Notes: generated from the letters alone by a model not told the origin. 64,000 nt of DNA from Euryarchaeota archaeon UBA86 (GCA_002503055.1 DAQX01000008.1:459-64458), one strand, 5' to 3'; counted from the stretch's first letter, positions 42,709-59,240 are shown. Numbers and translations are program-made.

Positions 42709-45144
42709 CTACTGTGAGAGGTCTTTGACCTTCTCCACTAGGTCCATCTTACTGATTCGCGATGTTCCGATTGGTGTCGAGAGCACGGATATGACCACTA
42801 CGATCAGAATTAGTTGGAGTGTGCTAGCAAAATTCGGCTGTAGGGAGAAGTAGAACGCCCATTGGACGAGTTGCGAAATCAGATACTGTGCCATCACTAT
42901 GGTGAATGCGGCTGAGAGAATTCCTCCAATTAGTCCGATTGCGAAGTGCTCACCTAGGATCATCATCCTGATTCTGGATATCGGAGCGCCTAGTACTCTG
43001 AGGGTCGCCAACTCAGAATCACGCTCGCTGAGATTCATCAGCAGGGTGATTGAGAGTACTGCAACGGCAATGAGAATGCCAAGTCCTAGAATGGCGTTGT
43101 AGATGCCTTGCTGCTGCTCTAGCAAGGATTCGAACGAGTCGATTAAGTCCTGTCTCTGAGTGATTCCGACAGACATCTCCCCTATCTCATCATCCAACTC
43201 AATTCCCTCTGGCAGAGTGAGAAGGACGGAAGTAGCTTCCAATCCGATGGCATCTGACAAATCAGAGCGGTGGAAGTAAATCGTCCGAGAGATCTCTCCA
43301 CTGGTCACTCCGCTTATCTCGACCTCGAGAGAAAATGGGCCGAACATGACGGTCTGTTTCTGACCTACCTCCCATTCGAGGAACAGCATGGTTCCCTCAT
43401 CCACCAGTACATTGGGAGTATCGGCGTCTAGTGTGGGAAGTTGGCCCTCGGACAGATCTATCGGAATCATCGCATCATCCTCAGTGGAGATTACATCTAG
43501 TCCGTAAGCTAGGAACTGTCTAGTGTCGCCCTCTGCATTTCCCGGGAAAACCAGCATAGACTCAAAATCTGCTCCGTTTTCTTCAGCCCACTCTATGACT
43601 TCCCCCTCGCCTCCGAAGGGCACATTCACCTGTGCATCCCAGTTTTGGTTGGCTCCGGTGACTAGATTGTCCATAGAGTCCATCATCATCGACATGGTTC
43701 CGAAGATGAGCATAGACAGACCCACAGCGAAGAAGGTGAATACCAGTCTCATCGGCTTCCTGACGCTTGATCTAACAGTCAGACCGACCGTTGTAGGTAG
43801 GCGCGATGTCAGCCTCTGAATTCCACGCGAAGATAGTCTGACCTCATTTTGTCCCCTCAGTATATCGAGTGGTTGAATCGTTGATGCCTCGTAAGCGGGC
43901 TTAATTCCGGCAATCAGAACTACAACCATAGCGATACCCAGATTCTGCAGAATTAGCGATGGCTCGGTGCTGAAGCCGATTGCTGGAATGCCGATGATTT
44001 CCTCATACATCGCCACCATCGCAGGCCCACCGAAGGCAGCACCTAGGATGATGCCAATCGTAGAGCCGATTAGGCCGATGGCTACAGGTGCGAGGATGAA
44101 TCCAGGCATAATTGCAGATCTAGGAATTCCAAGAGTTCGAAGTATTGCAATTTCTCTGGCTTGAGATTGAATCAGTCTCTGTAGGCTAAGGAAGATTGTG
44201 ATTCCAGCGACCATAGCAATCATTCCCGTAATTACTGGATAACTCAGGCTGGCCCCCTCGGCATCAGCGCGCAGGAATTCGACTGATTGGACTCCGGACC
44301 TATCGTAAGCAGTAAATGAAGAGTCGTCGGCATCCATCACCGTCTGTCTGACATAAGAGATGGCTTGGCTCAGACTCTCGCCTTCAACCTCCTCTGTAGA
44401 CTGAAGGTCAAACTCAGGTGTACCTTCGACATCTAGGAGCAATAGATTGGCAGAACCCGCACTCAGGTTGGCTAGACGCTCAATTCCCGAATCGGACAAG
44501 TAACCGGTAGCAAAGGTACCTGGCTCGGCAGGAAGGATGGAGCCTTCCAAAGCATAGTAGAGGTGATATGGGTGGTAACCGATTCCTACTACCGTGAAGT
44601 CCATGCTGCCATGGCCTGCGCCAATGGAGACTATGTCTCCAACTTCGATACCCATCCCAGACGCCGCATGCTCGTCGAGAACTAACTCATCATCTGCCGC
44701 TGCTAATCTGCCAGAACAGCATTCGTGTTCAGGCATCCAGACCTTGTCTATCCTGCCCTCATCGATACCATGCCAAACAGCAGGAACAAGTTTCTCATCA
44801 CCTTCTTCGGAATGAAACATCAGGCCATCCACTACCACTCTTGGCTCACATGAAACCAGAGGTAAATCAGGGTCGGGCCAGTTCTGCGCTATCTCGGAGC
44901 AAAGTGAGTTGGCGATTTCCCCGTCCCAAGTTGAAGCTGTGTTCTCGACCCAGACATCTGCAAGGTTGGTGCCCTCCTCATCATCAGAGTAGATGTTGTC
45001 GTACAGATTGTGGACTGAGTTAGCGTACGTTCCAAACGAGATTCCTGCAAACAAACCGACGGCAACCATGCTGACCACCGCGAATAGCATCAGCCTCCTC
45101 TTCATCAGGCTCCTTGCGAGGCGTTTGGTCAGTAGACTGGACAC
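42709..45144 (-). CDS. ABC transporter permease, MacB/FtsX-type with two FtsX domains and large extracytoplasmic loops
   Basis: 811 aa with two 4-TM FtsX-like modules (REIAILRTLG and ELATLRVLG signatures). It lies directly downstream of an ABC ATPase gene. Confidence 0.8.
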   Translation of the reverse strand: MSSLLTKRLARSLMKRRLMLFAVVSMVAVGLFAGISFGTYANSVHNLYDNIYSDDEEGTNLADVWVENTASTWDGEIANSLCSEIAQNWPDPDLPLVSCEPRVVVDGLMFHSEEGDEKLVPAVWHGIDEGRIDKVWMPEHECCSGRLAAADDELVLDEHAASGMGIEVGDIVSIGAGHGSMDFTVVGIGYHPYHLYYALEGSILPAEPGTFATGYLSDSGIERLANLSAGSANLLLLDVEGTPEFDLQSTEEVEGESLSQAISYVRQTVMDADDSSFTAYDRSGVQSVEFLRADAEGASLSYPVITGMIAMVAGITIFLSLQRLIQSQAREIAILRTLGIPRSAIMPGFILAPVAIGLIGSTIGIILGAAFGGPAMVAMYEEIIGIPAIGFSTEPSLILQNLGIAMVVVLIAGIKPAYEASTIQPLDILRGQNEVRLSSRGIQRLTSRLPTTVGLTVRSSVRKPMRLVFTFFAVGLSMLIFGTMSMMMDSMDNLVTGANQNWDAQVNVPFGGEGEVIEWAEENGADFESMLVFPGNAEGDTRQFLAYGLDVISTEDDAMIPIDLSEGQLPTLDADTPNVLVDEGTMLFLEWEVGQKQTVMFGPFSLEVEISGVTSGEISRTIYFHRSDLSDAIGLEATSVLLTLPEGIELDDEIGEMSVGITQRQDLIDSFESLLEQQQGIYNAILGLGILIAVAVLSITLLMNLSERDSELATLRVLGAPISRIRMMILGEHFAIGLIGGILSAAFTIVMAQYLISQLVQWAFYFSLQPNFASTLQLILIVVVISVLSTPIGTSRISKMDLVEKVKDLSQ

Positions 45145-45153
45145 TCAATCACC

Positions 45154-45972
45154 TCATCCAATGCGGTCATCTGAGAGAATTTTGCCGCTATCGAGTCTGA
45201 CTGCTCTTGTTGAGTACTCGACAAGAGACTCGTCGTGAGTCACGAAGACGCAGGTAATACCCTCGGCCTGGCAAGCCTTCACCAAGACTTCCATGACCAT
45301 GCCCGAGGTCTTGGAATCTAAATTTCCAGTCAGTTCGTCTCCGAGGAGTAGGCGTGGCTTCTTAGCCAGGCTCCTCGCAATCGCGACTCTCTGCTGTTGC
45401 CCGCCGCTAATCTCAGCGGGAAATCTGTCAACTTCCTCGCTCAGCCCAACTAGGTCGAGCAGGTGACGTGCACGGGCCTCATCACGGCCTCCTGCCAACT
45501 CCTGAATCAGAGTGATGTTCTCAAGCACTGTGAGATCCTGTAGGAGATTGAAAAATTGGAAGACATATCCAATATTTTCTCTCCTGAATGAAGTGGCTTC
45601 CTCACTAGCCTTTGCCATAGGTCGAGAGTAAGAGAAGTAATGCAAGGGATAGAGTAGGAGACGTAAGAGGGGTCGCAAGGGATCGAACCAAGCAGTGCGA
45701 CTCTCGGTAGTGATTCGATTCCACCACCTAAGTGGGATTTCAGGGGCCCTAGGTACTTCCCCACCTGCAAACCTGTACGTACCAGCAGTTGGACTGTCCA
45801 GTGCTGAAATGCAGTTCAGCAGGGTCGTCTTCCCGGAGCCTGATGGCCCTAGTAAGATAATCCTCTCACCTTCGCTTATCTCCAAATCGATTCCATCTAG
45901 GGCTCTGACTGTACCTGAGGCCATGTGATAGTGCCTCTCCAGTCCTTTCATACTCACCAGTGGCATAGACAT
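45154..45972 (-). CDS. ABC transporter ATP-binding protein (MacB/LolD-like) with ~50-aa insertion after Walker A
   Basis: Walker A GPSGSGKTT, Q-loop IGYVFQFFNLL, signature ISGGQQQRVAIAR, Walker B LLLGDE. An unusual W/L/P/R-rich insert lies between Walker A and the Q-loop. Confidence 0.9.
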   Translation of the reverse strand: MSMPLVSMKGLERHYHMASGTVRALDGIDLEISEGERIILLGPSGSGKTTLLNCISALDSPTAGTYRFAGGEVPRAPEIPLRWWNRITTESRTAWFDPLRPLLRLLLYPLHYFSYSRPMAKASEEATSFRRENIGYVFQFFNLLQDLTVLENITLIQELAGGRDEARARHLLDLVGLSEEVDRFPAEISGGQQQRVAIARSLAKKPRLLLGDELTGNLDSKTSGMVMEVLVKACQAEGITCVFVTHDESLVEYSTRAVRLDSGKILSDDRIG

Positions 45973-46015: not shown

Positions 46016-48094
46016 CTACTCGGATGTGCCCGAAAAGAATGCCATCGAGTCTCTAAACAACTCTTCTCGGCGCCTGATTCTGTTATCTCTAATCTTCAAC
46101 CAGGTGAAGGCGATTGCGATAAGAAGAATGACTGGAATAATTGCTTCAGCATGATATCTCTCCATGAATTCGATAATTCCTCTCGCAGTATATGCCCAAG
46201 TTAGAGAAGCTGCAGACCCTCCAATTAAGCAGGCTGCGAGTACCCTCTCGAATGGCATTCTAGCTACTAGTCCAAGCATTGCTCCAACAAGGACTCCACT
46301 AGCCATGAAAGGAATCCAGACGAATACAATCAAGCCCCAATAACCATATTTGTCAATGCGATCTTGATTTTTGTGAGCAACATACTCCACGGAGGACAGG
46401 ATATCTCCCATGAATGGATTCTGAAGTAGAGCACCGGCAATTCCTCCACGCTTGGCTACCATGGCCTCTCCGGTGAAATCTTTGATGCCCTGCTCAACCC
46501 TACCGGCCTCTGCCCTGTCTGCTAAAGTTAACTTCTCGTTTCGTGCACTCACTACTAGAGAACGGTCGCTGAGGTGTTGGGCTAGTTCGGTCCTGAGATG
46601 CCCCTCCAAGTCATCTTGCAGATCTTTGTATGTGGGCTTGAATAGGAAATAAGCAAAACGCTGTACGGGGCGATAGATTACTCTGATGAAGACTGCTTCC
46701 TCATCGGCCATTACTGCGGAGCCGAAGTCTACTAAATCGTGCTTACGGAACCAGCGAGCGAGGCTCTCGTGCGCGGCGGTATCAAGACGTCCAAAGGCAC
46801 CGATACCAGAGAAGAAGGGGCCATAATCCTCGGCGAGAGGGGCGGAAGAAGAGTCACTGTAGAAGAGCTCGGGACCAAGTGAAGTTAGGTCCGGCGAGGT
46901 GGTTGAGTCTGTGCAGACGACTTTGAGTTGCAGTGGTCGCATCTCGCCGAAGACGGCAAACTCTTCGAGAAGTTCCTTGGTTATCTCGGCGCGTACATCA
47001 ATCGGTGAGGCTATGGTCTTTCCAGTAGTCGTGTATGGGACAATAACATCGATTGAAATTGGTCTATCCTGCAACCTCATTTGTTCAAAGTCAACTTTGC
47101 ATCGCAATTCTTTCTGGACTGAAGCAATGGTACGCTCAATCAGCCTCTTAGTCTGAGCCTTGCTCAGAAGATCTTCTACATCCCTGTGATACAATCTGTG
47201 CATAAGTGGATATTGCACGCAAAGGAAGAAAATCGACATACCTAGCGATACAAGGGCCAACCACCAAGCAGGAGCTCCTTCATCCGAGCCGAAGAGCATT
47301 GCAGTCTCACGGCCTCCGACCCATTCGGCGCCCATTAGGAGCCATCCCATGGTGCCAAAATCCTGTATTGACAGGCAAGTTCTAGGCTCATCATCCGTGA
47401 CTACTACTTCAACGGATTCTTCACTGCTGAACAGGCCTCCTTTCTTGACTGTCTTGACCTCAACAGGGAGTTGTTTCGAATTTAGGCTGGTCAAAGACTC
47501 TGAAACCAATAGAAATGAGCTCTCATTGTCAATGTGTTCAAACGAATCCTCAGATTCTGAGAAAAACAGTGTTGCAGACATTAGGTAGTTCCCTTCAGAA
47601 ATGGAATCACCGATTTCTATCTCTGAGCGTATATCTTCTATTCCACCTTGATATGAAGAAATCAATGGATCGGAGTCCTCATCAAGAGTCAGAAGAACAA
47701 CTAAAATTGTTGCAGATGAAGGAGCATTGTTCGATTTGACAACGAGATTATCGTGGTCGCCATATGCTCTAATCCAAACCTCTCCCTTCTGATCTTGGCA
47801 CTCTCCTCCAGGATCGATGGGAGTTTTGGAGAGTGTTTGGTCCAGTACTATTGAATCGGCAGCAATTATTCCCGAAGACAATACCATCATGCCTCCGAAG
47901 AATACTATTCCCGAGATTACTCCGACAACTAAAGTCCAGTCATCGAAAGTTCCTCTGAAGAATCTCCTCTGACCAGTTCTACGCTGGCGTATTCGATCCA
48001 ACTCCCTATCGAGGGGGTCTTCTTCGACTTCTACCTCAGCGGCTTCTGCAACTTGCTCTGGCGTCACGGTATAGCCACGCAGAAGGAGACTCAT
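46016..48094 (-). CDS. Hypothetical large membrane protein; C-terminal region resembles the small multidrug-export (COG2426/PF06695-like) membrane domain
   Basis: 692 aa. TM helix near residue 55, a large middle region, and C-terminal helices (WGLIVFVWIPFMASGVLVGAMLGLVA...). The family resemblance is tentative. Confidence 0.5.
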   Translation of the reverse strand: MSLLLRGYTVTPEQVAEAAEVEVEEDPLDRELDRIRQRRTGQRRFFRGTFDDWTLVVGVISGIVFFGGMMVLSSGIIAADSIVLDQTLSKTPIDPGGECQDQKGEVWIRAYGDHDNLVVKSNNAPSSATILVVLLTLDEDSDPLISSYQGGIEDIRSEIEIGDSISEGNYLMSATLFFSESEDSFEHIDNESSFLLVSESLTSLNSKQLPVEVKTVKKGGLFSSEESVEVVVTDDEPRTCLSIQDFGTMGWLLMGAEWVGGRETAMLFGSDEGAPAWWLALVSLGMSIFFLCVQYPLMHRLYHRDVEDLLSKAQTKRLIERTIASVQKELRCKVDFEQMRLQDRPISIDVIVPYTTTGKTIASPIDVRAEITKELLEEFAVFGEMRPLQLKVVCTDSTTSPDLTSLGPELFYSDSSSAPLAEDYGPFFSGIGAFGRLDTAAHESLARWFRKHDLVDFGSAVMADEEAVFIRVIYRPVQRFAYFLFKPTYKDLQDDLEGHLRTELAQHLSDRSLVVSARNEKLTLADRAEAGRVEQGIKDFTGEAMVAKRGGIAGALLQNPFMGDILSSVEYVAHKNQDRIDKYGYWGLIVFVWIPFMASGVLVGAMLGLVARMPFERVLAACLIGGSAASLTWAYTARGIIEFMERYHAEAIIPVILLIAIAFTWLKIRDNRIRRREELFRDSMAFFSGTSE

Positions 48095-48096
48095 AG

Positions 48097-48120
48097 CCCT
48101 GTCCCCTACAGGGGACAGGG
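48097..48120 (-). other. GC-rich hairpin (10-bp perfect stem CCCTGTCCCC/GGGGACAGGG, 4-nt loop) between two co-directional genes
   Basis: Read directly from the sequence. It lies between the stop of 48141..50660 and the ATG (48094) of 46016..48094. Confidence 0.5.
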
Positions 48121-48140
48121 GCTACCGAGTTTTCGTATAT

Positions 48141-50660
48141 TCAGTCACGACGAGTCGCGAATGCTGCACCAAGTAGTACAGTCAATGCCATCAGTGCGCC
48201 GAAGCCGGGTAGAGCTGGTGGGTTTGCTAGTGAGTCAGATGAATACTCGGATGCCCAAGTGTCATACATTTCCATTCTAGTTTGGCCATCCCATCCTTCG
48301 AGAGTTAGCATATCGCCCGGCGAAACTAATCCATCGCCGTCAAGATCGGTGTAAGTGTGAGTTACTCCATTAGCTTCTCCTCCAGCTAGTGGGATGCTGA
48401 ATTCAACTGTACATTCATTCAGATCTGGTTCAACCATCTCGCCCGTTTCTTCGTCGTATTCCTCATGACAGTCGCTAAGGAAGCGAGTCTCGAAGTCGGA
48501 AATTGGTGCGTTAAGAGTCTGGTTCTTGGCAATATATCCAATGAGTATCGCAGGCATTTCTTGCTGATTATCATCGTCCCCATCGTCAAACTCGTCAGAG
48601 CCGTCCTCGCAGTCCTCCTCTCCATCATTGACCCAGTCCATCGGGATCTCGTCGCCGTTGTCGCATGTGAACCACTCTTCGCCATCATCATCGTCAGCAC
48701 AGCAATCATTCCAGGCGTCTTGGAACTCGTCCCAATCCAATCCCCCGCTATCATCGTAATCGTACATACCAATGAAGACAGAGAGGCCTTCGAAGTCTTC
48801 TTCTGACATCTCTTCGCCAGTTGAATTGACAAAAGCGGCCCACTCAGAGGGTGTGACATGTTCGTCCATGTCTTCAAGCCAGCCGTCGATGAGATGGAAT
48901 GCACACTCTGCATCACATTCGCCACCGCCATCAGGCAACATGTCCACAATGCCATCGATGAAGCACTGCATCTCGTCGATGTCGATTAGGTCGCTTCCAT
49001 CGTAGTCGCAATCATCGAACAGGATTGAGACCTCGTCGTAATCCAGTTCGGGGTTTGTTGGATCGGAATCCCAGGAATCCTGGAACTCTTGGAAACTCAT
49101 GTATCCATCGTCATTCGCATCTACAGATTCCATAGCCTCTTCTGGAGTTGGGGCGCCATCGCCATCATCGTCTGAACCTGACCACTCGTCCCAGTCCGCA
49201 GAGTGCTCGAATTCCTCGCTCTGTCCGAAGTCGTCAGTGCAGTGCCAGTCTGAGTCATGGTGCTCGCAGTAATACCACCATGTGCCCCAGTACTCATCGT
49301 CCTGAGATTCCTTACACCACCAAACAGTATCATCACCATCTGGGTTGCCTTCCCATTCGCAGTAGCCGTCATAATAGTCCGCCCAACCAATATCATCGCC
49401 GCCATCGTCGTCATCATCGAACATCTCAGAATCTACCCACATGAATGTGGTGCATTCCTCCTCGGACATTCCCTCTATCTGAGCATGGGTGTGAGTATTG
49501 TAGCAACCTGTGAATGGCTCCCCATTAGGGTCATGCTGAGATGTGTAGTTCTCTAGATACATCCACGAGTAGCAAGTGTCCTGGTCCGCATCTGTGATGT
49601 AATCTCCGTAGGAATTCCAGCAGACCATCTCTGGTTCTGGTTCATCGGAGCCGTCGCCGCAGTCGTCCCATCCATCGTCAACATAGTCCATCGGGATCTC
49701 ATTGCCGTTGTCGCAGTAGAATGTATCATCTTCGTCGGCGTCATCATCACCCCATGATTCGATATCGACCCAGACAGGTATAGATGTCTTTGGCAGAGTC
49801 TCATCGACCTCTATGACTACAGCATCTCCCCACATCATCTGGTACTCGATGTTCGTAGTTGCAGAGCCATTGTCGCTGGCCATATTGAAGGACATCAAGT
49901 CCTCATTCTGATTAATGTGAATGGTCATAGTGATTTCAGCGCCATCTTCGGTATACTCCATTGTCATAGTCTGAGATTCCATATCGTCGCTCATAGTGAT
50001 TGTAATTACTGCGTCTTCTGGGATTTCATCCACATCTGAATCTGGCGTTTCGACTAGCATCCCTTCGTCCCCTTCTTCGCCAGAGAAAAGACCGACCTGA
50101 TCTGCGAGTACTTCCAAAACATTGGGGGTTGCGTCTCGGGTCTGGTAAGATTCGGATTCGCCTCCTTCTGCTATCATTCCGCCTGCTGTGTAATGGATAT
50201 TGACCACCTCTCCAATCTGAGCATGGGTGTATGACATGGTCATCAAAGGCGCTATCGAGATGAAGTTATGCACATGCACAGCATCATTATCGAGATCGGC
50301 CATTACTGTCTCGATAATCATGACATCCATCTGCATACCCAATTCATCATTCCATTCGTTCACATTCATCGACTGAGAATATCCAGCCTTGGGAGTGTCC
50401 TCTAGCATCTCTTCGATAGTTCTGACATCGGACATGGCATCCATGAAAGTATCCATGGTGGCCATATAGATGCAGTCGCCGACCAACTCAGAGGTAGCAT
50501 TCTCTTCGTAGTTGGCAGCATTCTCATCCATACATCCGATGATGTCGTCGACTAGTTCCTCCAGATCGTCACCAGAAAGGCAACCAGCAAGAGGTGCGGC
50601 AATCAAAATTAAGCATGCAAACAAAGCATGTGCTCGTGTCATTGCACCGGGCGTCTTCAC
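48141..50660 (-). CDS. Extremely acidic secreted lipoprotein with LDL-receptor-class-A-like repeats, EF-hand-like loops and PGF-CTERM archaeal sorting signal
   Basis: Signal peptide plus lipobox LAGC. Two repeats: F(Y/T)CDNG(N/D)EIPMD(Y/W)V(D/N)DG..DC.DGSDE. Calcium-loop-like DANDDGYMSFQE, DYDDSGGLDWDE and DLDGDGLVSPGD. C-terminal PALPGFGALMALTVLLGAAFATRRD. Confidence 0.8.
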   Translation of the reverse strand: MKTPGAMTRAHALFACLILIAAPLAGCLSGDDLEELVDDIIGCMDENAANYEENATSELVGDCIYMATMDTFMDAMSDVRTIEEMLEDTPKAGYSQSMNVNEWNDELGMQMDVMIIETVMADLDNDAVHVHNFISIAPLMTMSYTHAQIGEVVNIHYTAGGMIAEGGESESYQTRDATPNVLEVLADQVGLFSGEEGDEGMLVETPDSDVDEIPEDAVITITMSDDMESQTMTMEYTEDGAEITMTIHINQNEDLMSFNMASDNGSATTNIEYQMMWGDAVVIEVDETLPKTSIPVWVDIESWGDDDADEDDTFYCDNGNEIPMDYVDDGWDDCGDGSDEPEPEMVCWNSYGDYITDADQDTCYSWMYLENYTSQHDPNGEPFTGCYNTHTHAQIEGMSEEECTTFMWVDSEMFDDDDDGGDDIGWADYYDGYCEWEGNPDGDDTVWWCKESQDDEYWGTWWYYCEHHDSDWHCTDDFGQSEEFEHSADWDEWSGSDDDGDGAPTPEEAMESVDANDDGYMSFQEFQDSWDSDPTNPELDYDEVSILFDDCDYDGSDLIDIDEMQCFIDGIVDMLPDGGGECDAECAFHLIDGWLEDMDEHVTPSEWAAFVNSTGEEMSEEDFEGLSVFIGMYDYDDSGGLDWDEFQDAWNDCCADDDDGEEWFTCDNGDEIPMDWVNDGEEDCEDGSDEFDDGDDDNQQEMPAILIGYIAKNQTLNAPISDFETRFLSDCHEEYDEETGEMVEPDLNECTVEFSIPLAGGEANGVTHTYTDLDGDGLVSPGDMLTLEGWDGQTRMEMYDTWASEYSSDSLANPPALPGFGALMALTVLLGAAFATRRD

Positions 50661-50756: not shown

Positions 50757-50841
50757 TGGTGCAGGGAGTAGGATTCGAACCTACGAAGCACTACGCACTG
50801 GGACCTAAACCCAGCCCCTTTGACCACTCGGGTACCCCTGC
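50757..50841 (-). tRNA. tRNA-Leu (anticodon UAG), class II with long variable arm, CCA encoded
   Basis: Hand folding of the reverse complement GCAGGGGTACCCGAGTGGTCAAAGGGGCTGGGTTTAGGTCCCAGTGCGTAGTGCTTCGTAGGTTCGAATCCTACTCCCTGCACCA. Acceptor stem is 7 bp (one G-U). Anticodon stem CTGGG/CCCAG with loop TTTAGGT. T arm GTAGG-TTCGAAT-CCTAC. Variable region is 13 nt. Confidence 0.93.
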
Positions 50842-51944: not shown

Positions 51945-52223
51945 TTGGCAAGGATTGATTGCCTCTTTACAATCTCAGGAGTTGAGCAAATGGCGTTTGA
52001 GGACCTCACCGAGTTCGAATTACGACTGCTGAAGTGGATTTCAGCATCCGACTTTGTCGGGGTTGCTTGGTCCACAAAGCGTGCAGCTGATGCGTTCAAG
52101 GTTGATGAAAAGGAGGTCTACGAGGCACTAGCATCCTTGACTGCCAAAGTTCGAGATAACATTCACATCTACTATGACGAAGGTGCAATCAGGATTGTCG
52201 CTGACGACTCACTGCCATCTTAG
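51945..52223 (+). CDS. Small hypothetical protein
   Basis: 92-aa ORF immediately after gpsA with no motif. The internal ATG (MAFEDLTEFEL...) may be the true start. It overlaps the convergent phnE-like gene end by 15 nt. Confidence 0.3.
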   Translation: MARIDCLFTISGVEQMAFEDLTEFELRLLKWISASDFVGVAWSTKRAADAFKVDEKEVYEALASLTAKVRDNIHIYYDEGAIRIVADDSLPS

Positions 52224-53090
52224 TATATCGGGAAGAATTACTCCCCACCAAGAAGGTCTATTCACATTGTCTTCTTCATTGAAGAATGATCGTGCATATA
52301 TTGAGAGGAAATCAATCAGTAGAACGGTGATGAAGATAATTATCAAGTAAGCCATGACTTTGTCATATTGCAGGAACTTGAGATATAGATTGATGTAATA
52401 TCCAATTCCACCGGCCCCTACTATTCCGATTACTGTACCGTGCCTTACATTGTACTCAAACATGAAAATAGCCTGTGAAATCAAATGATTTGCAGACTCC
52501 GGTATCACCACTCCAAGAGATTTCTCAAATTTCGATAACCCCATTGAATTCGCCGCATCTAGAGGGGCTTTGTCCATACCCTCGATAGCCTCGTACTGCA
52601 GTTTTCCTAAGTAACCGACCGTGTAAATTGTCATGGCAAAAATTCCCGATAGAGGTCCGAGTCCAATCAGAATTACGAAGAAAATTGCCCAGATTAGGCT
52701 TGGTAGACTTCTGCCAGCGGCTAAGATGAATCTGGCCAGGTATGAGATTCTTGGAGAGTTCAGATTTCTAGCCGCTAGAAGTGCTATTGGTAGAGATATA
52801 ATCATTCCAAGAATTGTTGAGACAAATGCTATCTTTATTGTCTCAATCATTCCAATCCAAGCAGTAGAGCAAGTAAAACTGAATGGTTCTGGAGTTGTAC
52901 ACACCGGATATGCCTGTGCCTCCAGAACCGTCCAATCTGGTGGCCACAAAGATTGATGGAAGAAGTCTATGAGGTTTTGAAAACTACCTGATAATCGGCC
53001 CCAATCGTCAATCATCCCGTTTAGAACAACAAAACCCGAAATGAATAGTGCGAGTAGGGCGAAAGAGTTCTTTCCGAAACCTGTAATCAT
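52209..53090 (-). CDS. phnE: ABC transporter permease, PhnE-like (phosphonate-type importer family)
   Basis: EAIEGMDKAPLDAANSMG, FEYNVRHGTVIGIVGAGGIGYYI and a terminal D..S...R pattern typical of PhnE. ATGA overlap with the ATPase gene. Confidence 0.8.
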   Translation of the reverse strand: MITGFGKNSFALLALFISGFVVLNGMIDDWGRLSGSFQNLIDFFHQSLWPPDWTVLEAQAYPVCTTPEPFSFTCSTAWIGMIETIKIAFVSTILGMIISLPIALLAARNLNSPRISYLARFILAAGRSLPSLIWAIFFVILIGLGPLSGIFAMTIYTVGYLGKLQYEAIEGMDKAPLDAANSMGLSKFEKSLGVVIPESANHLISQAIFMFEYNVRHGTVIGIVGAGGIGYYINLYLKFLQYDKVMAYLIIIFITVLLIDFLSIYARSFFNEEDNVNRPSWWGVILPDILRWQ

Positions 53091-53815
53091 AGGTTAACCT
53101 CCAGTGCTGTAGTTTCGGAAAGGAATGGATTTACCCTTCCGTCATCAATGACTAGCATCCTATCTGCCATCGATTTAGCACGAGATACATCATGCTCCAC
53201 TACGATTAGAGCTGCTTGAGTTGAACGAACATATTCAGTAACCTCGAATAATACACTATTCAATGTCTCTTCATCTAACTCACTGAGGAATTCATCTGCC
53301 ATAATCAGCCTAGGTGATTGTGCCAGAGAACGTGCAGTTGCAACTCTTCTCTGTTGCCCACCCGAGAGTCTGCGAATTGGTTCGTCAATCTTGTCTGTAA
53401 GGCCCATTCTTTCAATCGCATCTTCGGTCCTGGACAGTGACTCTGCCGACGGAGTAATTGTATGAGGATTGGTGTGGCCGGCTCTAGCCCCCATCATCAC
53501 ATTGTGCTTCACACTAGCATGACGAACCAGTCCCAATCTCTGAGGGATGTATCCTACGGATCCACGAGGCGGAAGTTTCGGAAGTATTGAATTGCAAACT
53601 TCCAATGTTCCTGTAATTGGACTTACTAATCCGGCAATTGTACGGAGAAGTGTTGTCTTGCCGACCCCTGAAGCTCCGGTGATAGCAACGATTTCTCCAG
53701 GGTATATTTTCAAATCTGGAACCTGTACTAGAGGATTTTTTGAATCAAATCCGATGGTCAAACCGCTCAATGAGACGATTGGTTTCGAATTCTGATTTTC
53801 ATTATTTCCTGTCAT
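53087..53815 (-). CDS. phnC: ABC transporter ATP-binding protein, PhnC-like
   Basis: Walker A GASGVGKTT, Q-loop GYIPQRLGL, signature LSGGQQRRVATARSL, Walker B LIMADEF. The PhnC assignment comes from translational coupling to the PhnE-like permease. ATG 53815 is preferred over TTG 53818. Confidence 0.8.
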   Translation of the reverse strand: MTGNNENQNSKPIVSLSGLTIGFDSKNPLVQVPDLKIYPGEIVAITGASGVGKTTLLRTIAGLVSPITGTLEVCNSILPKLPPRGSVGYIPQRLGLVRHASVKHNVMMGARAGHTNPHTITPSAESLSRTEDAIERMGLTDKIDEPIRRLSGGQQRRVATARSLAQSPRLIMADEFLSELDEETLNSVLFEVTEYVRSTQAALIVVEHDVSRAKSMADRMLVIDDGRVNPFLSETTALEVNL

Positions 53816-53966
53816 CAAATCGCCTTCCTTTATTCGTTGGATGCTTGATAATGTTAGACATAAATGAAATTCTGCTCATCTGCGATGCAAGATGGAATGG
53901 GTTTGCCCTTGCCGCGGATTGCACAGCAATCCGTGGACGACCAACATTTGAATGATTGTGTTAGAG

Positions 53967-53989
53967 AATTTTTCCCTTAGGGAAAAATT
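53967..53989. other. 23-nt perfect palindrome AATTTTTCCCT-T-AGGGAAAAATT in the 256-nt spacer between the lipoprotein gene and phnC
   Basis: Read directly from the sequence. The arms of 11 nt are exact reverse complements. It could be a terminator/attenuator hairpin or a protein-binding site. Confidence 0.45.
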
Positions 53990-54074
53990 GGGTTGACGGG
54001 GAGAAATCCAATTCTGAATTTCATAATTGTATGGGGTGTAACCTAAGATCTCCCCGCCAACTTTTCTATGATGC

Positions 54075-55334
54075 TTATTGGAGTGTGCCAATGTCATCAG
54101 CAGTGATGCCGAAAGCATCCCATGCAGGTTGTAAGTACATGCGAACATGTGCCTCGTAATCTGCTGTTGTGTCGCCATCATTGCTTAGATCGAATATGTC
54201 CACAATCTGAGCTGCTCCGTAGTCTGCGTAGTAGCCTGGCATTCCGCTTCCGGGGAACACAGAGGCGAATCCATTGCAGATTTCCTCGGTTGTTGCTGCT
54301 GCATATACGATGTGTCCTGCTCCCATGTTATAGCAGACCATCTCACCAGAACTTGGAGATTCGACCCAAGAGAATCCATCACAGTGTGCTGCTTCGCCTG
54401 CACCAATGTATGCCATTCCGTGAGTCTGGTTGTTGTAGCATGCATCTGTGTAGTCGGCCACATAAGCCTCGATTACTCTGAAGAATGCATGACCCTCGGC
54501 TTGGTGCTTATCGTAGTCGCCGTTTGCCTCGTCGAGATCAACAGTCATCTTTGATGCATACCTTACGGAAGCCTGTGAATAGACGATGACAATTTGCTTG
54601 AGAACCGCATCTCGAGCGTCAATCACGCCCTGCATGTCTTCATTCTCTAGTGCGGTTAGTCCGGCGTTCATTGCCGCGAGTGTGGCTACATTGGTTGCGT
54701 CGCCTGTTCCGAAGTTACCTCCTCTCTTAGCTGCAGTTGCGAAAGGTCCGCATCCGTCGTAGTCGTGGTCAGAATCATCAGGACCGTGATAGAATGCCCA
54801 TCCTTCGTCCCAAGCGTGCTGTGCATCGTCAGGGCCCCAGTTTCCTGCCTCGGCCTTGATTATGGCAGCATTGAGCTCGTGGATTGCATATGCGGTCATT
54901 ACACCGTTCTGAATTCCCTTCTCAACAGCTTGGTCTCTTACTGTGTCAGACTCGCCTGCGAATGCACCGGTGCCATCGATTGCCGCAGATACGAAGGAGT
55001 CCCATGATCCATCAACGCCATAATATGCGTCGTAGGCATGGTTCTTGCCAGAAGCGGATGCAAAGCCTTCCAAAGTCCTGAAGGATCCGTCGGACTTCTC
55101 AGCGTACTTTCCGTCCCCATAGATATCCGAAACTTCGTCCCAATCGTATGCTCCAGATAGATCCTTGATGTCACAAACATCACCCATCAGCATGCGATGG
55201 TTATCGACATTGGATGCGTACTCGTAGCCACCATCTTCGCCATCTAGTTCAATTTCATCATCACTTGTGCAACCTGCCAAAACAGATGCACAGAGAAGCA
55301 GTGTAATCAACATTGTAATTGTCTTTTTAGTCAT
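54075..55334 (-). CDS. Secreted acidic lipoprotein of unknown family, upstream of phnC/phnE-like genes; candidate metal-responsive binding protein
   Basis: Signal peptide MTKKTITMLITLLLCASVLAGC (lipobox). Conserved-looking segments FRTLEGFASASGKNHAYDAYYG, AWDEGWAFYHG and AEGHAFFRVIEAY. Two copies of the TTTAGG-N4-CCTAAA palindrome lie upstream. Confidence 0.6.
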   Translation of the reverse strand: MTKKTITMLITLLLCASVLAGCTSDDEIELDGEDGGYEYASNVDNHRMLMGDVCDIKDLSGAYDWDEVSDIYGDGKYAEKSDGSFRTLEGFASASGKNHAYDAYYGVDGSWDSFVSAAIDGTGAFAGESDTVRDQAVEKGIQNGVMTAYAIHELNAAIIKAEAGNWGPDDAQHAWDEGWAFYHGPDDSDHDYDGCGPFATAAKRGGNFGTGDATNVATLAAMNAGLTALENEDMQGVIDARDAVLKQIVIVYSQASVRYASKMTVDLDEANGDYDKHQAEGHAFFRVIEAYVADYTDACYNNQTHGMAYIGAGEAAHCDGFSWVESPSSGEMVCYNMGAGHIVYAAATTEEICNGFASVFPGSGMPGYYADYGAAQIVDIFDLSNDGDTTADYEAHVRMYLQPAWDAFGITADDIGTLQ

Positions 55335-55335
55335 T

Positions 55336-55351
55336 TTTAGGTCTCCCTAAA
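55336..55351. promoter_or_regulatory. Palindromic operator-like site TTTAGGTCTCCCTAAA (copy 1 of 4)
   Basis: TTTAGG-N4-CCTAAA inverted repeat, 2 nt upstream of the ATG of the 54075..55334 lipoprotein gene. Confidence 0.45.
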
Positions 55352-55379
55352 CCTTCGGACAGATATTCTATTTATCAAG

Positions 55380-55395
55380 TTTAGGTGGCCCTAAA
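55380..55395. promoter_or_regulatory. Palindromic operator-like site TTTAGGTGGCCCTAAA (copy 2 of 4)
   Basis: Same inverted repeat in the divergent intergenic region, 46 nt from the lipoprotein ATG and 75 nt from the DUF454 ATG. It is followed by ACTGTAAAAAAAAA, similar to the flank of copy 4. Confidence 0.5.
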
Positions 55396-55469
55396 CTGTA
55401 AAAAAAAATCTCTTTTTTACGAATAGGTCAGTTACATTAGATTATATTTGAAAGTACATCTCCATTGGC

Positions 55470-55877
55470 ATGAACGGTGTTCATGAAGCTAAACTCAGCG
55501 AGAATAAACTGAGTAGAGTATTTTGGTTTTCTTTAGGAGTAATATTCACGGGTATTGGACTGATAGGGATTGTAGTTCCGGGTTTACCAACGACTCCCTT
55601 GATGATTCTAGCTGCTGCGTGTTTTGCAAAGTCCAGTCAGAGATTCTATGATTGGATTATCAATAACAGAATGTTTGGAGAACATGTGAAGAATTACCGA
55701 GAAGGTAATGGAATTCCTAAGAGAAGTAAGCCGGTAATTTTGGGAACAATGTGGACATTTGTGTTGTTTGCTGTTTTCATTGCAATCCCAGACAGTGCTC
55801 CCGAAATTTCGCGAAACGCAACAGTGATTTTGGCCGTGATTGGGACCATTTTTATCCTTAGAATTCCTAATTTCTAG
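55470..55877 (+). CDS. DUF454 (YbaN-like) inner-membrane protein
   Basis: IGIVVPGLPTTPLMILAAACFAKSSQRFYDWIINNRMFGEHVKNYREG matches the YbaN/DUF454 N-terminal signature. 135 aa. Confidence 0.75.
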   Translation: MNGVHEAKLSENKLSRVFWFSLGVIFTGIGLIGIVVPGLPTTPLMILAAACFAKSSQRFYDWIINNRMFGEHVKNYREGNGIPKRSKPVILGTMWTFVLFAVFIAIPDSAPEISRNATVILAVIGTIFILRIPNF

Positions 55878-56901: not shown

Positions 56902-56946
56902 GCCTCTCGGAATAGTTCAGAGTATTAATTGGTTAGTTTTCAGTCG

Positions 56947-58158: not shown

Positions 58159-58160
58159 AC

Positions 58161-59210: not shown

Positions 59211-59240
59211 GGGGGTGCGCAAACGATATCAAATAAAATG

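What the first reader, a model, noticed from the sequence alone, without database searches (positions are those of the whole stretch)
48141..50660. Hyper-acidic PGF-CTERM surface protein carrying degenerate LDL-receptor class A repeats and EF-hand-like calcium loops
The 839-aa protein has a lipobox signal peptide and a textbook PGF-CTERM end (PALPGFGALMALTVLLGAAFATRRD), implying archaeosortase processing. Two repeats, similar at the DNA level as well (nt 49641-49721 and 48591-48671), read F.CDNG.EIPMD.V.DG..DC.DGSDE. This is the calcium-binding half of the eukaryote-typical LDLa module (W.CDG..DC.DGSDE), but with only two of the six cysteines. At least four EF-hand-like 12-residue loops follow (DANDDGYMSFQE, DYDGSDLIDIDE, DYDDSGGLDWDE, DLDGDGLVSPGD). 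A Trp/Cys/Asp-rich block (WWCKESQDDEYWGTWWYYCEHHDSDWHC) is also unusual. The gene heads a co-directional string: a hairpin, a 692-aa membrane protein and a MacB-type ABC pair.
Basis: partly seen in the sequence, partly recalled or inferred. Interest (0 to 1): 0.65.

Follow-up and report, generated by a model that had tools for sequence, protein, structure and literature searches.

The report
Calcium-binding, doubly anchored archaeal surface protein
A marine planktonic archaeon (Marine Group II) encodes a very acidic cell-surface protein that appears to be tied to the membrane at both ends and carries calcium-binding modules otherwise typical of animal LDL receptors and calmodulin; the family is real, uncharacterised, limited to this lineage and unusually variable in its middle.

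Summary
ORF 48141-50660 (-) encodes an 839-aa protein (probable true start M7). D+E is 26.7% against 13.4±2.5% for the window's other ORFs.

- **LDLa modules:** the two repeats clear Pfam's gathering score. A family profile retrieves only LDLa modules from the PDB. Zero of 5,000 composition-preserving shuffles reach the observed score. Each repeat spans almost the whole module and keeps only Cys C2 and C5 plus all four acidic Ca2+ ligands.
- **EF-hands:** residues 506-654 form a calmodulin-like four-EF-hand domain. The fifth "EF-like" loop lies in a beta context.
- **Anchors:** the lipobox and an invariant LPGFGA…RRD tail persist across the whole family. The PGF-CTERM models score below cut-off here. 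Archaeosortase could not be tested.
- **New findings:** the family is restricted to MGIIb archaea. The constant ends flank a swappable centre with 0-5 LDLa modules. 22 of 48 MAG contigs break inside the gene. The N-domain is lineage-private with a tentatively LolA-like fold. A positionally conserved hairpin and a LolD/FtsX-type ABC pair follow the gene.

Best reading: a Ca2+-rigidified, doubly lipid-anchored ligand-capture or adhesion protein under diversifying selection. This is a new variant of known kinds.

The parts
48141..50660 (-). Coding sequence of the 839-aa acidic surface protein (stop included). The probable true start is M7 at nt 50642.
50580..50660 (-). Signal peptide ending in the lipobox L-A-G-C. 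Cys27 is Cys21 when counted from M7.
   Evidence: Sequence. The lipobox Cys is present in 29/30 homologs and at the same position in relatives with 28-69% N-domain identity. The core motif matches the archaeal lipobox definition in PMC12462473 and PMC6098224.
50472..50534 (-). Cys-bounded mini-motif CMDENAANYEENATSELVGDC (Cys43-Cys63).
   Evidence: Both Cys are conserved in 29-30 of 30 homologs. The same motif occurs in 3-12 tandem copies in unrelated proteins. It has no Pfam family.
49746..50573 (-). Conserved N-terminal domain (residues 30-305): three helices plus an 11-stranded antiparallel beta sheet. Candidate LolA-like fold.
   Evidence: Occupancy is about 1.0 in the family. Only 60 relatives exist among 1.84 billion representatives. 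AF2 gives pTM 0.63 with core pLDDT 80-88. Foldseek finds LolA, EPD-BCP1, VioE and EPDR1 at E = 1e-4 to 1e-3 and prob 0.96-1.0, but TM is only 0.2-0.33.
49641..49721 (-). LDLa-type calcium-cage module 1 (residues 314-340, FYCDNGNEIPMDYVDDGWDDCGDGSDE).
49401..49640 (-). Variable four-Cys insert (residues 341-420). Present in about half of the homologs and replaced by other cassettes in near-identical strains.
   Evidence: Occupancy 0.53-0.70. Cys347, 363, 386 and 403 are gained or lost as a set. Cassette swap seen against P0005 and P0006.
49221..49400 (-). Trp/Cys/Asp-rich block (residues 421-480, four Cys).
   Evidence: There is no sequence relative in the PDB. Present in about 76% of homologs. 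The model is low-confidence here.
48699..49145 (-). Calmodulin-like four-EF-hand domain (residues 506-654). Canonical loops are at 514-525, 552-563 and 634-645. EF3 (about 590-607) is degenerate in this protein.
   Evidence: EF-hand_7 scores 35.2 bits against a gathering score of 30. It is found in 30/30 family members, best E = 7e-38. pLDDT is about 80 with four helix-loop-helix units. Foldseek finds calmodulin, troponin C and centrin at prob 1.0.
48591..48671 (-). LDLa-type calcium-cage module 2 (residues 664-690, FTCDNGDEIPMDWVNDGEEDCEDGSDE).
   Evidence: It is 16/27 identical to a VLDLR module without gaps.
48243..48554 (-). Conserved C-terminal beta domain (residues 703-806) with invariant Cys731 and Cys750. 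It carries a DxDxDG-type loop, DLDGDGLVSPGD (nt 48312-48347), in a beta-loop-beta context.
   Evidence: Conservation 0.8 or higher. Both Cys are present in 30/30. pLDDT is 64-79 and all-beta.
48144..48218 (-). PGF-CTERM-type tripartite tail PALPGFGALMALTVLLGAAFATRRD.
   Evidence: TIGR04126 19.2 bits (cut-off 24.5) and PF18204 15.6 bits (cut-off 18.8). LPGFGA and LLGAA-A-[TS]-RRD are invariant in 30/30. 15/30 members match TIGR04126 at E <= 0.01.
48089..48130 (-). GC-rich hairpin just after the stop codon. Its 3' arm covers the ATG of the next gene.
   Evidence: -32.2 kcal/mol, z = -5.6. A strong hairpin occupies this position in all 23 loci examined, in at least four unrelated sequence types.
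46016..48094 (-). 692-aa membrane protein with a C-terminal Sm_multidrug_ex domain. An optional neighbour.
   Evidence: PF06695, 50.3 bits. Absent from L002, L005, L012, L033, L035, L043 and L047.
45154..45972 (-). ABC ATPase of the LolD/DevA/FtsE/MacB group.
   Evidence: ABC_tran E = 1.6e-31. The best NCBIfam models are LolD, DevA, FtsE and MacB, all below their cut-offs. It follows the target in every locus with enough flank.
42709..45144 (-). 811-aa permease with two FtsX domains (type VII ABC, MacB/LolCE/YbbP-like).
   Evidence: FtsX with 2 stretches. Partial LolC/E, ADOP and YbbP matches, all below cut-off. Syntenic.

Best explanation
This is a lineage-specific (Marine Group IIb, Thalassarchaeaceae) extracellular protein held on the cell membrane at both ends. 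Its ectodomain is a string of calcium-stabilised modules.

**Steps shown by sequence or computation**
- A signal peptide with a canonical L-A-G-C lipobox.
- A small disulfide loop (CMD...NY).
- A conserved, lineage-private N-terminal beta domain.
- Two LDL-receptor class A type modules. Each keeps the full set of acidic Ca2+ ligands and the aromatic residue, but only the C2-C5 cysteine pair.
- A Trp/Cys-rich block.
- A calmodulin-like four-EF-hand domain.
- A C-terminal beta domain with a DxDxDG loop.
- A PGF-type tripartite tail.

**Steps inferred from established pathways**
- The lipobox Cys is linked to archaeol by an AliA-type enzyme and the signal peptide is removed.
- The PGF tail is cleaved and replaced by a lipid through an archaeosortase A-type enzyme. 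The mature protein is then a loop tethered at both termini.
- In seawater (about 10 mM Ca2+) the LDLa cages and EF-hands are permanently occupied. Calcium therefore acts structurally, stiffening an otherwise strongly repulsive polyanionic chain. It is not acting as a signal.
- The LDLa modules display the acidic and aromatic face that eukaryotic receptors use to clasp Lys/Arg side chains of ligands.

**Function and evolution**
- The most likely job is calcium-dependent capture of ligands or adhesion at the cell surface.
- The constant ends act as scaffold and anchor. The central cassettes (0-5 LDLa modules, 0-10 EF loops, or other Cys-rich inserts) are exchanged rapidly between strains. This is probably driven by diversifying selection from ligands or viruses.
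- The gene is probably the highly expressed first gene of a unit that continues, past a hairpin, into a LolD/FtsX-type ABC transporter.
For: **LDLa identity**
- Pfam score is above the gathering score.
- The module profile hits only LDLa-type chains in the PDB. Single modules score 1e-7 to 1e-10, gapless over positions 2-28.
- Modules are 14-16 of 27 residues identical to VLDLR and LRP2 modules, and 16-17 of 28-29 to glucosidase II beta module 1.
- Shuffle control gives z = 8.5-12.7.
- C4, G7, D17, D21, C22, D24, S26, D27 and E28 are invariant across 31 distinct modules.

**EF-hand domain:**

**Anchors:** the lipobox and PGF tail are kept in all full-length relatives down to 28-40% N-domain identity.

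**Extracellular state:** Cys residues are conserved or lost in matched pairs or sets.

**Lineage restriction**
- 53 loci, all from Poseidoniales MAGs.
- The N-domain has 60 relatives among 1.84 billion representatives.

**Rapid and modular evolution**
- N-domain identity is 36-83% while neighbours are 57-92% identical.
- Cassette indels and mosaic identity appear between close homologs.
- Tandem paralogs carry different centres.
- 22 of 48 MAG contigs end inside the gene, at the junction of the N-domain and the variable region.
- All 64 LDLa modules in about 760 kb of MGIIb DNA lie in this gene.

**Operon-like layout:** fixed order with ABC and FtsX, and a positionally conserved hairpin.

**Pathway background:** PMC12462473 (AliA/AliB, thioether archaeol) and PMC6098224 (ArtA cleavage and lipidation; LAGC lipobox).
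Against: - No ligand, expression or localisation data exist.
- The PGF-CTERM HMM scores are below the trusted cut-offs for this sequence. No archaeosortase was found in the window, and none could be searched for in the rest of the genome.
- AF2 confidence over the LDLa modules themselves is low (pLDDT 39-49), so their fold is inferred from sequence only.
- Four of six LDLa cysteines are missing, so stability and Ca2+ affinity are untested.
- The link to the ABC pair rests on synteny within one family, where unrelated housekeeping genes (xth, DeoC, G3P dehydrogenase) are equally syntenic.
- Contig breaks could partly reflect assembly trouble with internal repeats and not true population variation.
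Confidence: 0.6

Rival explanations
1. It is the extracytoplasmic partner of the adjacent LolD/FtsX-type (type VII) ABC transporter. The transporter would extract a lipid, pigment or lipoprotein from the membrane and hand it to the LolA-like N-terminal domain. Known analogies are LolCDE-LolA and the mycobacterial lipoprotein LprG with its transporter. The calcium modules would act only as a rigid stalk.
For: - The N-domain model (pTM 0.63) has 11 antiparallel strands plus helices.
- Its best matches are LolA, the carotenoid-binding EPD-BCP1, VioE, EPDR1, DUF1329 and MucB, at prob 0.96-1.0. The full-length model gave the same set.
- The ABC ATPase's best model is LolD and the permease's best is LolC/E.
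- Gene order is fixed in all loci, even where the 692-aa gene is absent.
- A hairpin after the first gene resembles binding-protein/transporter operons.
Against: - TM-scores are only 0.2-0.33 and rmsd is 10-14 Å. No sequence profile supports LolA.
- All ABC and permease matches are far below family cut-offs.
- Synteny extends equally to unrelated genes.
- A single-membrane archaeon has no obvious need for a Lol-type shuttle.
Confidence: 0.15
2. It is the main envelope (S-layer-type) glycoprotein of MGIIb cells. It would be a calcium-bridged acidic lattice protein anchored like the Haloferax S-layer glycoprotein.
For: - A PGF-type tail, size of about 800 aa, extreme acidity, five N-x-S/T sequons and fast evolution.
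- A downstream hairpin of the kind found after highly expressed genes.
- ArtA's best-known substrate is an S-layer glycoprotein (PMC6098224).
Against: - No Ig-like or other known lattice domains were found.
- The extra N-terminal lipid anchor and the strain-variable centre fit a lattice protein poorly.
- The gene is not mentioned among highly transcribed Thalassarchaeaceae genes in PMC9723583 (text search only).
- The family was found only in MGIIb, not across Poseidoniales.
Confidence: 0.12
3. It is a polyanionic calcium sink on the surface. It would buffer or sequester Ca2+, or inhibit carbonate nucleation at the cell surface, in the manner of Asp-rich biomineralisation proteins or calsequestrin. 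It would have no specific ligand.
For: - 26.7% D+E, long Asp runs and several kinds of Ca2+ site.
- A Ca2+/Na+ antiporter is encoded in the same window.
Against: - Strict conservation of discrete folded modules, a private N-domain and paired cysteines argues for specific structure, not bulk charge.
- Cassette turnover is not expected for a buffer.
- The antiporter is 30 kb away and unlinked.
Confidence: 0.06
4. The LDLa and EF-hand resemblances are artefacts of Asp/Gly-rich low-complexity sequence, and the protein is simply a disordered acidic linker.
For: The protein is extremely Asp-rich, and more than half of the full-length model has pLDDT below 50.
Against: - 0 of 5,000 shuffles reach the observed scores.
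- The only high-scoring 29-mers in the protein are the two modules.
- Hydrophobic signature positions (F, I-P, W/Y-V) and both Cys are conserved.
- The profile finds only LDLa chains in the PDB.
- The EF-hand domain folds with pLDDT of about 80 and matches calmodulin.
Confidence: 0.02

Closest known systems
LDL-receptor class A (LDLa / complement-type) modules of LDLR, VLDLR and LRP2 (Pfam PF00057)
   Same: - Gapless alignment over about 27 residues at 14-16 identities.
- Same F-x-C-x-x-G-x-x-[IV]-P-x-x-[WY] and D-G-x-x-D-C-x-D-G-S-D-E signature.
- All four acidic Ca2+-ligand positions and the aromatic position are retained.
- Score is above Pfam's gathering threshold.
   Different: - Only 2 of 6 cysteines remain. 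By alignment these are C2 and C5, which form one native disulfide in LDLa (textbook connectivity C1-C3, C2-C5, C4-C6).
- The C3 position is Glu and the C4 position is Asp or Asn. C1 and C6 are absent.
- The host is an archaeon, and the modules sit in a lipobox/PGF-tail protein.
Glucosidase II beta subunit (PRKCSH) N-terminal LDLa-like modules (PDB 8d43_B, 5f0e_B)
   Same: - Also lacks Cys at the C3 and C4 positions. It has I-P-x-D-x-V-N-D, as the archaeal modules do.
- It gives the best single-stretch scores to the archaeal profile: 42.8-44.2 bits, E = 1e-10.
- 16-17 of 28-29 residues are identical. The comparator sequence was verified against the PDB.
- From established knowledge of PRKCSH, it also combines LDLa-like modules with an EF-hand pair and a long acidic stretch.
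   Different: - GIIbeta keeps an extra Cys pair and C6, and needs a one-residue gap.
- It is a soluble ER-lumen enzyme subunit with an MRH domain.
- There is no similarity outside the modules.
Calmodulin / troponin C / centrin four-EF-hand domains
   Same: Two pairs of helix-loop-helix Ca2+ sites over about 150 residues. Foldseek prob 1.0, E = 6e-5 to 1e-3, 21-24% identity. Pfam EF-hand_7 is above threshold.
   Different: - Extracellular, and embedded in a larger protein.
- A conserved disulfide pair (Cys551 and Cys566) brackets EF2.
- EF3 is degenerate in this copy.
- In seawater calcium it cannot act as a Ca2+ switch.
[quoted passage not shown]
   Same: C-terminal P-G-F motif, hydrophobic helix and basic cluster at the extreme C-terminus. 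Acidic secreted protein of about 800 aa (PMC6098224).
   Different: - HMM scores are sub-threshold.
- The organism is a Thermoplasmatota MGII archaeon for which ArtA is undocumented in the searched literature.
- There is an additional N-terminal lipobox anchor.
- There are no Ig-like lattice domains.
LolA-like fold proteins (LolA, VioE, ependymin/EPDR1, EPD-BCP1, MucB/RseB) with LolCDE/MacB type VII ABC transporters
   Same: An 11-stranded open antiparallel sheet with helices. Top Foldseek hits all belong to this fold class. The adjacent ATPase and FtsX permease are nearest to LolD and LolC/E models.
   Different: - TM-scores are 0.2-0.33 and there is no sequence-level signal.
- The domain is lineage-private.
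- The organism has a single membrane.

Membership tests
LDL-receptor class A module (PF00057 / PROSITE LDLRA) | Profile score at or above the curated threshold | tested here: met
   26.1 bits against a gathering score of 24.1, two stretches, profile positions 6-35 of 37. 19 of 30 family members match, best E = 1.2e-19.
LDL-receptor class A module (PF00057 / PROSITE LDLRA) | Six conserved cysteines forming three disulfides (C1-C3, C2-C5, C4-C6) | tested here: not met
   Only two Cys per module, aligned to C2 and C5. The C3 position is E and the C4 position is D or N in 31 distinct modules.
LDL-receptor class A module (PF00057 / PROSITE LDLRA) | Acidic Ca2+ cage: D after C4, D before C5, the D-E of the SDE motif, and an aromatic residue three positions before | tested here: met
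   D17, D21, D27 and E28 are invariant, and W or Y occupies the aromatic position in nearly all of the 31 distinct modules. This is sequence level only; Ca2+ binding was not measured.
LDL-receptor class A module (PF00057 / PROSITE LDLRA) | The compact LDLa fold (beta hairpin plus 3-10 turn around the Ca2+ ion) | tested here: inconclusive
   AF2 pLDDT is 39-49 over both modules. Short strands are predicted at 307-309/315-317 and 657-659/665-667. No ion-aware prediction was available.
EF-hand (PF13499 / PF00036) | Profile score above threshold, and 12-residue loops (D-x-[DNS]-x-[DNS]-G-x-[ILV]-x-x-x-E) flanked by helices and paired | tested here: met
   EF-hand_7 scores 35.2 against 30. There are three canonical loops and one degenerate loop. 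Four helix-loop-helix units have pLDDT of about 80. Calmodulin and troponin C match at prob 1.0. 30/30 members match.
PGF-CTERM / archaeosortase A sorting signal (TIGR04126, PF18204) | Tripartite tail at the extreme C-terminus: PGF motif, hydrophobic helix, basic cluster | tested here: met
   PALPGFG-ALMALTVLLGAAFA-TRRD forms the last 25 residues. LPGFGA and RRD are invariant in 30/30.
PGF-CTERM / archaeosortase A sorting signal (TIGR04126, PF18204) | HMM score at or above the curated cut-off | tested here: not met
   TIGR04126 scores 19.2 against 24.5. PF18204 scores 15.6 against 18.8. 15/30 homologs match at E <= 0.01, best 2e-5. One homolog (P0119) is named a PGF-CTERM protein by NCBI.
PGF-CTERM / archaeosortase A sorting signal (TIGR04126, PF18204) | An archaeosortase A gene in the same genome | not testable with these tools
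   None of the 22 window ORFs scanned against NCBIfam, or the 20 scanned against Pfam (20 more, minus 4 scanned in both), matched an archaeosortase; the membrane-rich ones were all covered. No seed sequence was available. No paper links ArtA to MGII.
Archaeal lipobox lipoprotein (AliA/AliB pathway) | Signal peptide with [LVI][ASTVI][GAS]C at the end of the hydrophobic region | tested here: met
   MTRAHALFACLILIAAPLAGC. The Cys is conserved in 29/30 and at position 21 in distant relatives. Three other window proteins also have lipoboxes. The motif definition comes from PMC12462473.
Archaeal lipobox lipoprotein (AliA/AliB pathway) | AliA (arCOG02177) homolog in the genome | not tested
   No seed sequence was available, and none was recognised in the window.
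LolA-like fold superfamily | Open 11-stranded antiparallel beta barrel with a helical lid enclosing a hydrophobic cavity | tested here: inconclusive
   The strand count and the top Foldseek hits fit: LolA 2w7q E = 1.2e-4; VioE, EPDR1 and EPD-BCP1 at prob 0.96-1.0. But TM is 0.2-0.33 and rmsd is above 10 Å. The cavity was not examined.
Type VII (MacB/LolCDE/FtsEX) ABC transporter, for the neighbouring pair | FtsX-domain permease with a separate LolD/MacB-group ATPase | tested here: met
   FtsX has 2 stretches, E = 1.4e-26. ABC_tran has E = 1.6e-31. The top NCBIfam models are LolD, DevA, FtsE and MacB for the ATPase and LolC/E, ADOP and YbbP for the permease. All are below equivalog cut-offs, so membership holds at superfamily level only.

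The most novel reading that the evidence does not exclude
Marine Group IIb archaea use a eukaryote-type LDL-receptor calcium cage, stripped to a single disulfide, on a protein lipid-anchored at both ends. That protein would be both the cell's hypervariable receptor (the target of its viruses or its means of capturing basic proteins) and the LolA-like extracytoplasmic partner of a Lol/MacB-type ABC machine. This would be an archaeal counterpart of a Lol-style hand-off system. It would also be a prokaryotic relative or source of the LDLa/glucosidase II beta module, instead of a recent transfer from eukaryotes.
Probability: 0.12. Interest if true: 0.85.

Novelty: new variant of a known kind. Interest (0 to 1): 0.55.

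Why it matters
- **Uncultured, abundant organisms.** Marine Group II archaea are among the most abundant planktonic archaea and remain uncultured. Almost nothing is known about their cell surface.
- **Concrete candidate.** This family is conserved in its lineage and is a candidate for how MGIIb cells meet ligands, particles or viruses.
- **Module evolution.** The LDLa calcium cage, usually treated as a eukaryotic and largely animal module, exists in archaea in a minimal one-disulfide form. That form is closest in cysteine pattern to glucosidase II beta. This bears on the origin and the minimal stability requirements of the module.
- **Dual anchoring.** A lipobox combined with a PGF tail predicts a protein lipid-anchored at both termini, an arrangement I did not find described in the literature searched.
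- **Population genomics.** The strain-level cassette turnover makes the gene a natural marker for population and virus-host studies.
- **Limits.** None of this is shown experimentally, and the domain hits are already present in automated annotations. The advance is interpretive, not a new principle.

Tried and rejected
1. **Archaeosortase.**
   - 38 of the 52 window ORFs of 150 aa or more, including every membrane-rich one, were scanned against Pfam and/or NCBIfam, with no hit.
   - Four literature searches found nothing linking ArtA or PGF-CTERM to MGII.
   - I had no seed sequence and no remaining genome-collection scan, so this stays untested.
2. **Full-length AF2 model.** Mean pLDDT was 50.8. 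It was usable only for the EF-hand block and partly for the C-domain. The LDLa modules and the Trp-rich block stayed unresolved.
3. **Trp/Cys-rich block (residues 341-500).** No hit against PDB sequences at E <= 1.
4. **Dockerin, thrombospondin type 3 or other Ca2+ repeat families.** None appeared in the Pfam scan at E <= 1, so these were rejected.
5. **XopAW (NF041410).** It matches 29/30 members but at 22 bits against a cut-off of 120. This is generic EF-hand similarity, not membership.
6. **Viral contigs.** One marginal 17-residue hit for the module, so there is no evidence that viruses carry it.
7. **CMD...NY repeat proteins.** No Pfam family.
8. **Literature.** Nothing on LDLa in archaea, or on EF-hand plus PGF-CTERM. 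The main MGII genome papers mention thrombospondin and flotillin but not this family. The Thalassoarchaea 'metagenomic islands' paper is not in the library.
9. **Distribution of 2-Cys LDLa modules outside MGII.** Not attempted with the protein-search tools. The listed top hits would be saturated by multi-module eukaryotic LRPs.
10. **Compositional artefact.** Rejected by the shuffle test.

Full report
**The observation**

The minus-strand ORF 48141-50660 encodes 839 aa from a GTG. Nearly all homologs begin at the internal Met7, 'MTRAHALF' (nt 50642).

The protein has pI 4.05, 224 Asp+Glu against 12 Lys+Arg, 24 Cys and 27 Trp. The whole window encodes acidic proteins, but this one is still an outlier. 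D+E is 26.7% against 13.4±2.5% (max 18.1%) for 39 other ORFs, and K+R is 1.4% against 7.7%.

The two repeats are at the stated coordinates. They share 78% nucleotide and 20/27 amino-acid identity.

**LDLa modules**

Pfam Ldl_recept_a scores 26.1 bits, above the gathering score of 24.1, over profile positions 6-35 of 37. The repeat is therefore a near-complete module, not only its calcium half.

I collected 31 distinct core sequences of this module (46 with flanks) from 120 homologs. The consensus is F-x-C-D-N-G-N-E-I-P-M-D-W-V-D-D-G-x-D-D-C-G-D-G-S-D-E. C4, G7, D17, D21, C22, D24, S26, D27 and E28 are invariant.

- A profile of these modules searched against all PDB sequences returns only LDLa-type chains: LRP2, VLDLR, LDLR, LRP1/4/8, glucosidase II beta, complement factor I, enteropeptidase, CD320 and LRAD3.
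- Single-module chains score E = 1e-7 to 1e-10, with gapless alignments over positions 2-28.
- In those alignments the two archaeal cysteines fall on LDLa C2 and C5. Glu replaces C3 and Asp or Asn replaces C4.
- By textbook LDLa connectivity (C1-C3, C2-C5, C4-C6), the archaeal module keeps exactly one native disulfide. It also keeps all four acidic side-chain Ca2+ ligands and the aromatic residue.
- Identity to VLDLR and LRP2 modules is 14-16 of 27.
- None of 5,000 composition-preserving shuffles reaches the observed scores (z = 8.5-12.7). The only high-scoring 29-mers in the protein are the two modules. The low-complexity explanation is rejected.
- Glucosidase II beta gives the best single-stretch scores (42.8-44.2 bits). 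Its sequence was verified against PDB 8d43_B.
- GIIbeta also lacks Cys at C3 and C4 and shares I-P-x-D-x-V-N-D. From established knowledge, it also combines such modules with an EF-hand pair and an acidic stretch.

**EF-hands**

EF-hand_7 scores 35.2 bits against 30, and all 30 aligned family members match (best E = 7e-38).

In the full-length AF2 model only residues 500-650 are confident (pLDDT about 80). They form four helix-loop-helix units. Foldseek matches them to calmodulin, troponin C and centrin at probability 1.0.

- The loops at 514, 552 and 634 are canonical or nearly so.
- The third EF-hand is degenerate in this protein but canonical in the family consensus.
It is a DxDxDG-type loop, not an EF-hand.

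**Anchors**

The N-terminus, MTRAHALFACLILIAAPLAGC, carries the canonical LAGC lipobox. The lipobox Cys is present in 29/30 homologs. It sits at the same position in relatives with only 28-40% N-domain identity. Archaeal lipobox cysteines receive thioether-linked archaeol through AliA/AliB (PMC12462473).

The C-terminal PALPGFGALMALTVLLGAAFATRRD has the tripartite PGF-CTERM layout. It scores below the curated cut-offs.

- LPGFGA and LLGAA-A-[TS]-RRD are invariant in 30/30 while the hydrophobic core between them varies.
- 15/30 members match TIGR04126 at E <= 0.01.
- NCBI names one homolog a PGF-CTERM protein.
- That pattern is what an enzyme-recognised sorting signal should look like. ArtA-type processing is described in PMC6098224.
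- I could not test for an archaeosortase. None is in the window, and no tool route to the rest of the genome remained.

If both signals are used, the mature protein is lipid-tethered at both ends.

Cysteines in the ectodomain are conserved or lost in matched sets: 43/63, 316/334, 347-403, 434-474, 551/566, 666/684 and 731/750. This fits disulfides in an exported protein.

**Family and evolution**

A search of 5.8 billion proteins gives 941 hits, essentially all unnamed. A scan of one genome per GTDB species gives 53 loci, all from Poseidoniales MAGs; those named more precisely are Thalassarchaeum, Thalassarchaeaceae or MGIIb-O1.

An exhaustive HMMER pass of the N-terminal domain (residues 30-305) over 1.84 billion representatives finds only 60 relatives. 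The domain is private to this lineage.

Conservation mapping shows constant ends and a variable centre.

- Homologs carry 0-5 LDLa modules and 0-10 EF-type loops.
- Near-identical strains differ by whole cassettes. One homolog has a divergent N-domain but a 82-95% identical centre.
- One genome has two tandem paralogs, the second with a completely different Cys-rich centre.
- The N-domain diverges to 36-50% identity where neighbouring genes stay at 57-92%.
- In 22 of 48 loci the MAG contig ends inside the gene, at a median of 1,060 nt from the start. That is the boundary between the N-domain and the variable region.
- All 64 LDLa-type modules found in about 760 kb of MGIIb DNA lie within this gene.

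Together these results indicate a fast-evolving, recombining surface protein.

**N-terminal domain**

Modelled alone with a more diverse alignment, it reaches pTM 0.63, with core pLDDT of 80-88. It has three helices and then 11 antiparallel strands.

Foldseek's best PDB matches are LolA, the carotenoid-binding ependymin EPD-BCP1, VioE, EPDR1, DUF1329 and MucB, at probabilities 0.96-1.0. To my knowledge these all share the LolA-like fold. TM-scores are only 0.2-0.33. I treat this as a fold-class lead, not an assignment.

The first about 35 residues after the lipobox are a separate Cys-bounded CMDxxAxNY...C loop. It occurs as tandem arrays in unrelated proteins and in another MGII lipoprotein. 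It has no Pfam family.

**Context**

The gene order is fixed in every locus with enough flank:

1. G3P dehydrogenase on the opposite strand.
2. tRNA-Leu.
3. This gene.
4. Optionally, the 692-aa Sm_multidrug_ex protein.
5. A LolD/MacB-group ABC ATPase.
6. A double-FtsX permease.
7. xth.
8. DeoC and shikimate-pathway genes.

The ATPase and permease are type VII ABC components at superfamily level only.

A strong hairpin follows the stop codon. A hairpin is present at that position in all 23 loci examined, in at least four unrelated sequences. The structure, not the sequence, is conserved. This is typical of a terminator or stabiliser after an abundantly expressed first gene.

Because unrelated housekeeping genes are equally syntenic, the functional link to the ABC pair remains an inference.

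**Interpretation**

The best-supported reading is a doubly anchored, Ca2+-rigidified modular ectoprotein. It would act in ligand capture or adhesion and be subject to diversifying selection.

- Calcium is probably structural, because seawater calcium would saturate the sites.
- LDLa modules in eukaryotes bind Lys/Arg of ligands through the same acidic and aromatic face, which is retained here.
- The rivals are a Lol-like hand-off partner of the ABC machine, an S-layer-type envelope protein, and a polyanionic calcium sink. None is excluded.

The domain hits already exist in automated annotation. No paper in the searchable library discusses LDLa modules in archaea, EF-hand proteins with PGF tails, or this family.

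I rate it a new variant of known kinds, of moderate interest.

Noticed in passing
window 50472-50534 (-); also L052 9992-12085 and proteins P0163, P0169-P0177: A roughly 20-residue Cys-bounded motif, C-M-D-x-x-A-x-N-Y-[ND]-x-x-A-T-x-x-x-G-x-C, follows the lipobox here and in another MGII lipoprotein. It occurs as 3-12 tandem copies in unrelated, mostly bacterial, surface proteins. No Pfam family matches it.
   Followed up: partly
loci L004-L050: In 22 of 48 species-representative MAGs the contig ends inside this gene, at a median of 1,060 nt from its start. This suggests population-level hypervariability, or repeats that break assemblies.
   Followed up: partly
L032 8444-10939 and 10952-13156: Two tandem paralogs of the family sit in one genome (UBA58). 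The second lacks EF-hands and carries a different Cys-rich centre. Each is followed by its own hairpin, and the two hairpins are of different sequence types.
   Followed up: partly
window 48089-48130 (-) and the equivalent position in 22 loci: The hairpin after the stop codon is conserved in position but comes in at least four unrelated sequence types. In the window's type, the 3' arm contains the start codon of the downstream gene.
   Followed up: partly
window 18395-19336 (+): A calcium/sodium antiporter gene (TIGR00367, 195.5 bits, above cut-off). It lies 30 kb from the calcium-binding surface protein, with no evident linkage.
   Followed up: no
window 32064-33005 (+): A secreted 313-aa protein with a weak 'choice-of-anchor T' match (43 bits against 70). 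Its PGF-like tail is LPSLGFVHIVATLAVAAGYSRQRSN, a possible second substrate of the same sorting system.
   Followed up: no
window 3224-7081 (-) and 59295-61616 (-): Two unusual fusion proteins. One is a 1,285-aa subtilisin-like protease fused to a 14-TM AmpG/MFS-type transporter. The other is a 773-aa aminopeptidase-like domain fused to a ZupT zinc transporter.
   Followed up: no
window 52209-59222 (-): A cluster that looks like an iron or phosphonate uptake locus. It holds a Fea1-like lipoprotein, a transferrin/phosphonate-binding protein, an ABC ATPase with its permease, and a GSDH-like lipoprotein. Several members carry lipoboxes.
   Followed up: no
window 2024-2977, 48141-50642, 54075-55334, 56947-58158: At least four secreted proteins in the window have L-x-G-C lipoboxes. 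Two subtilase ORFs also show L-S-G-C near their N-termini. Lipoprotein anchoring therefore appears to be the default for this organism's exoproteins.
   Followed up: partly
window 50757-50841 (-): tRNA-Leu (anticodon TAG, 85 nt) lies about 100 nt upstream of the gene on the same strand. The position is part of the conserved synteny, not an integration scar.
   Followed up: no
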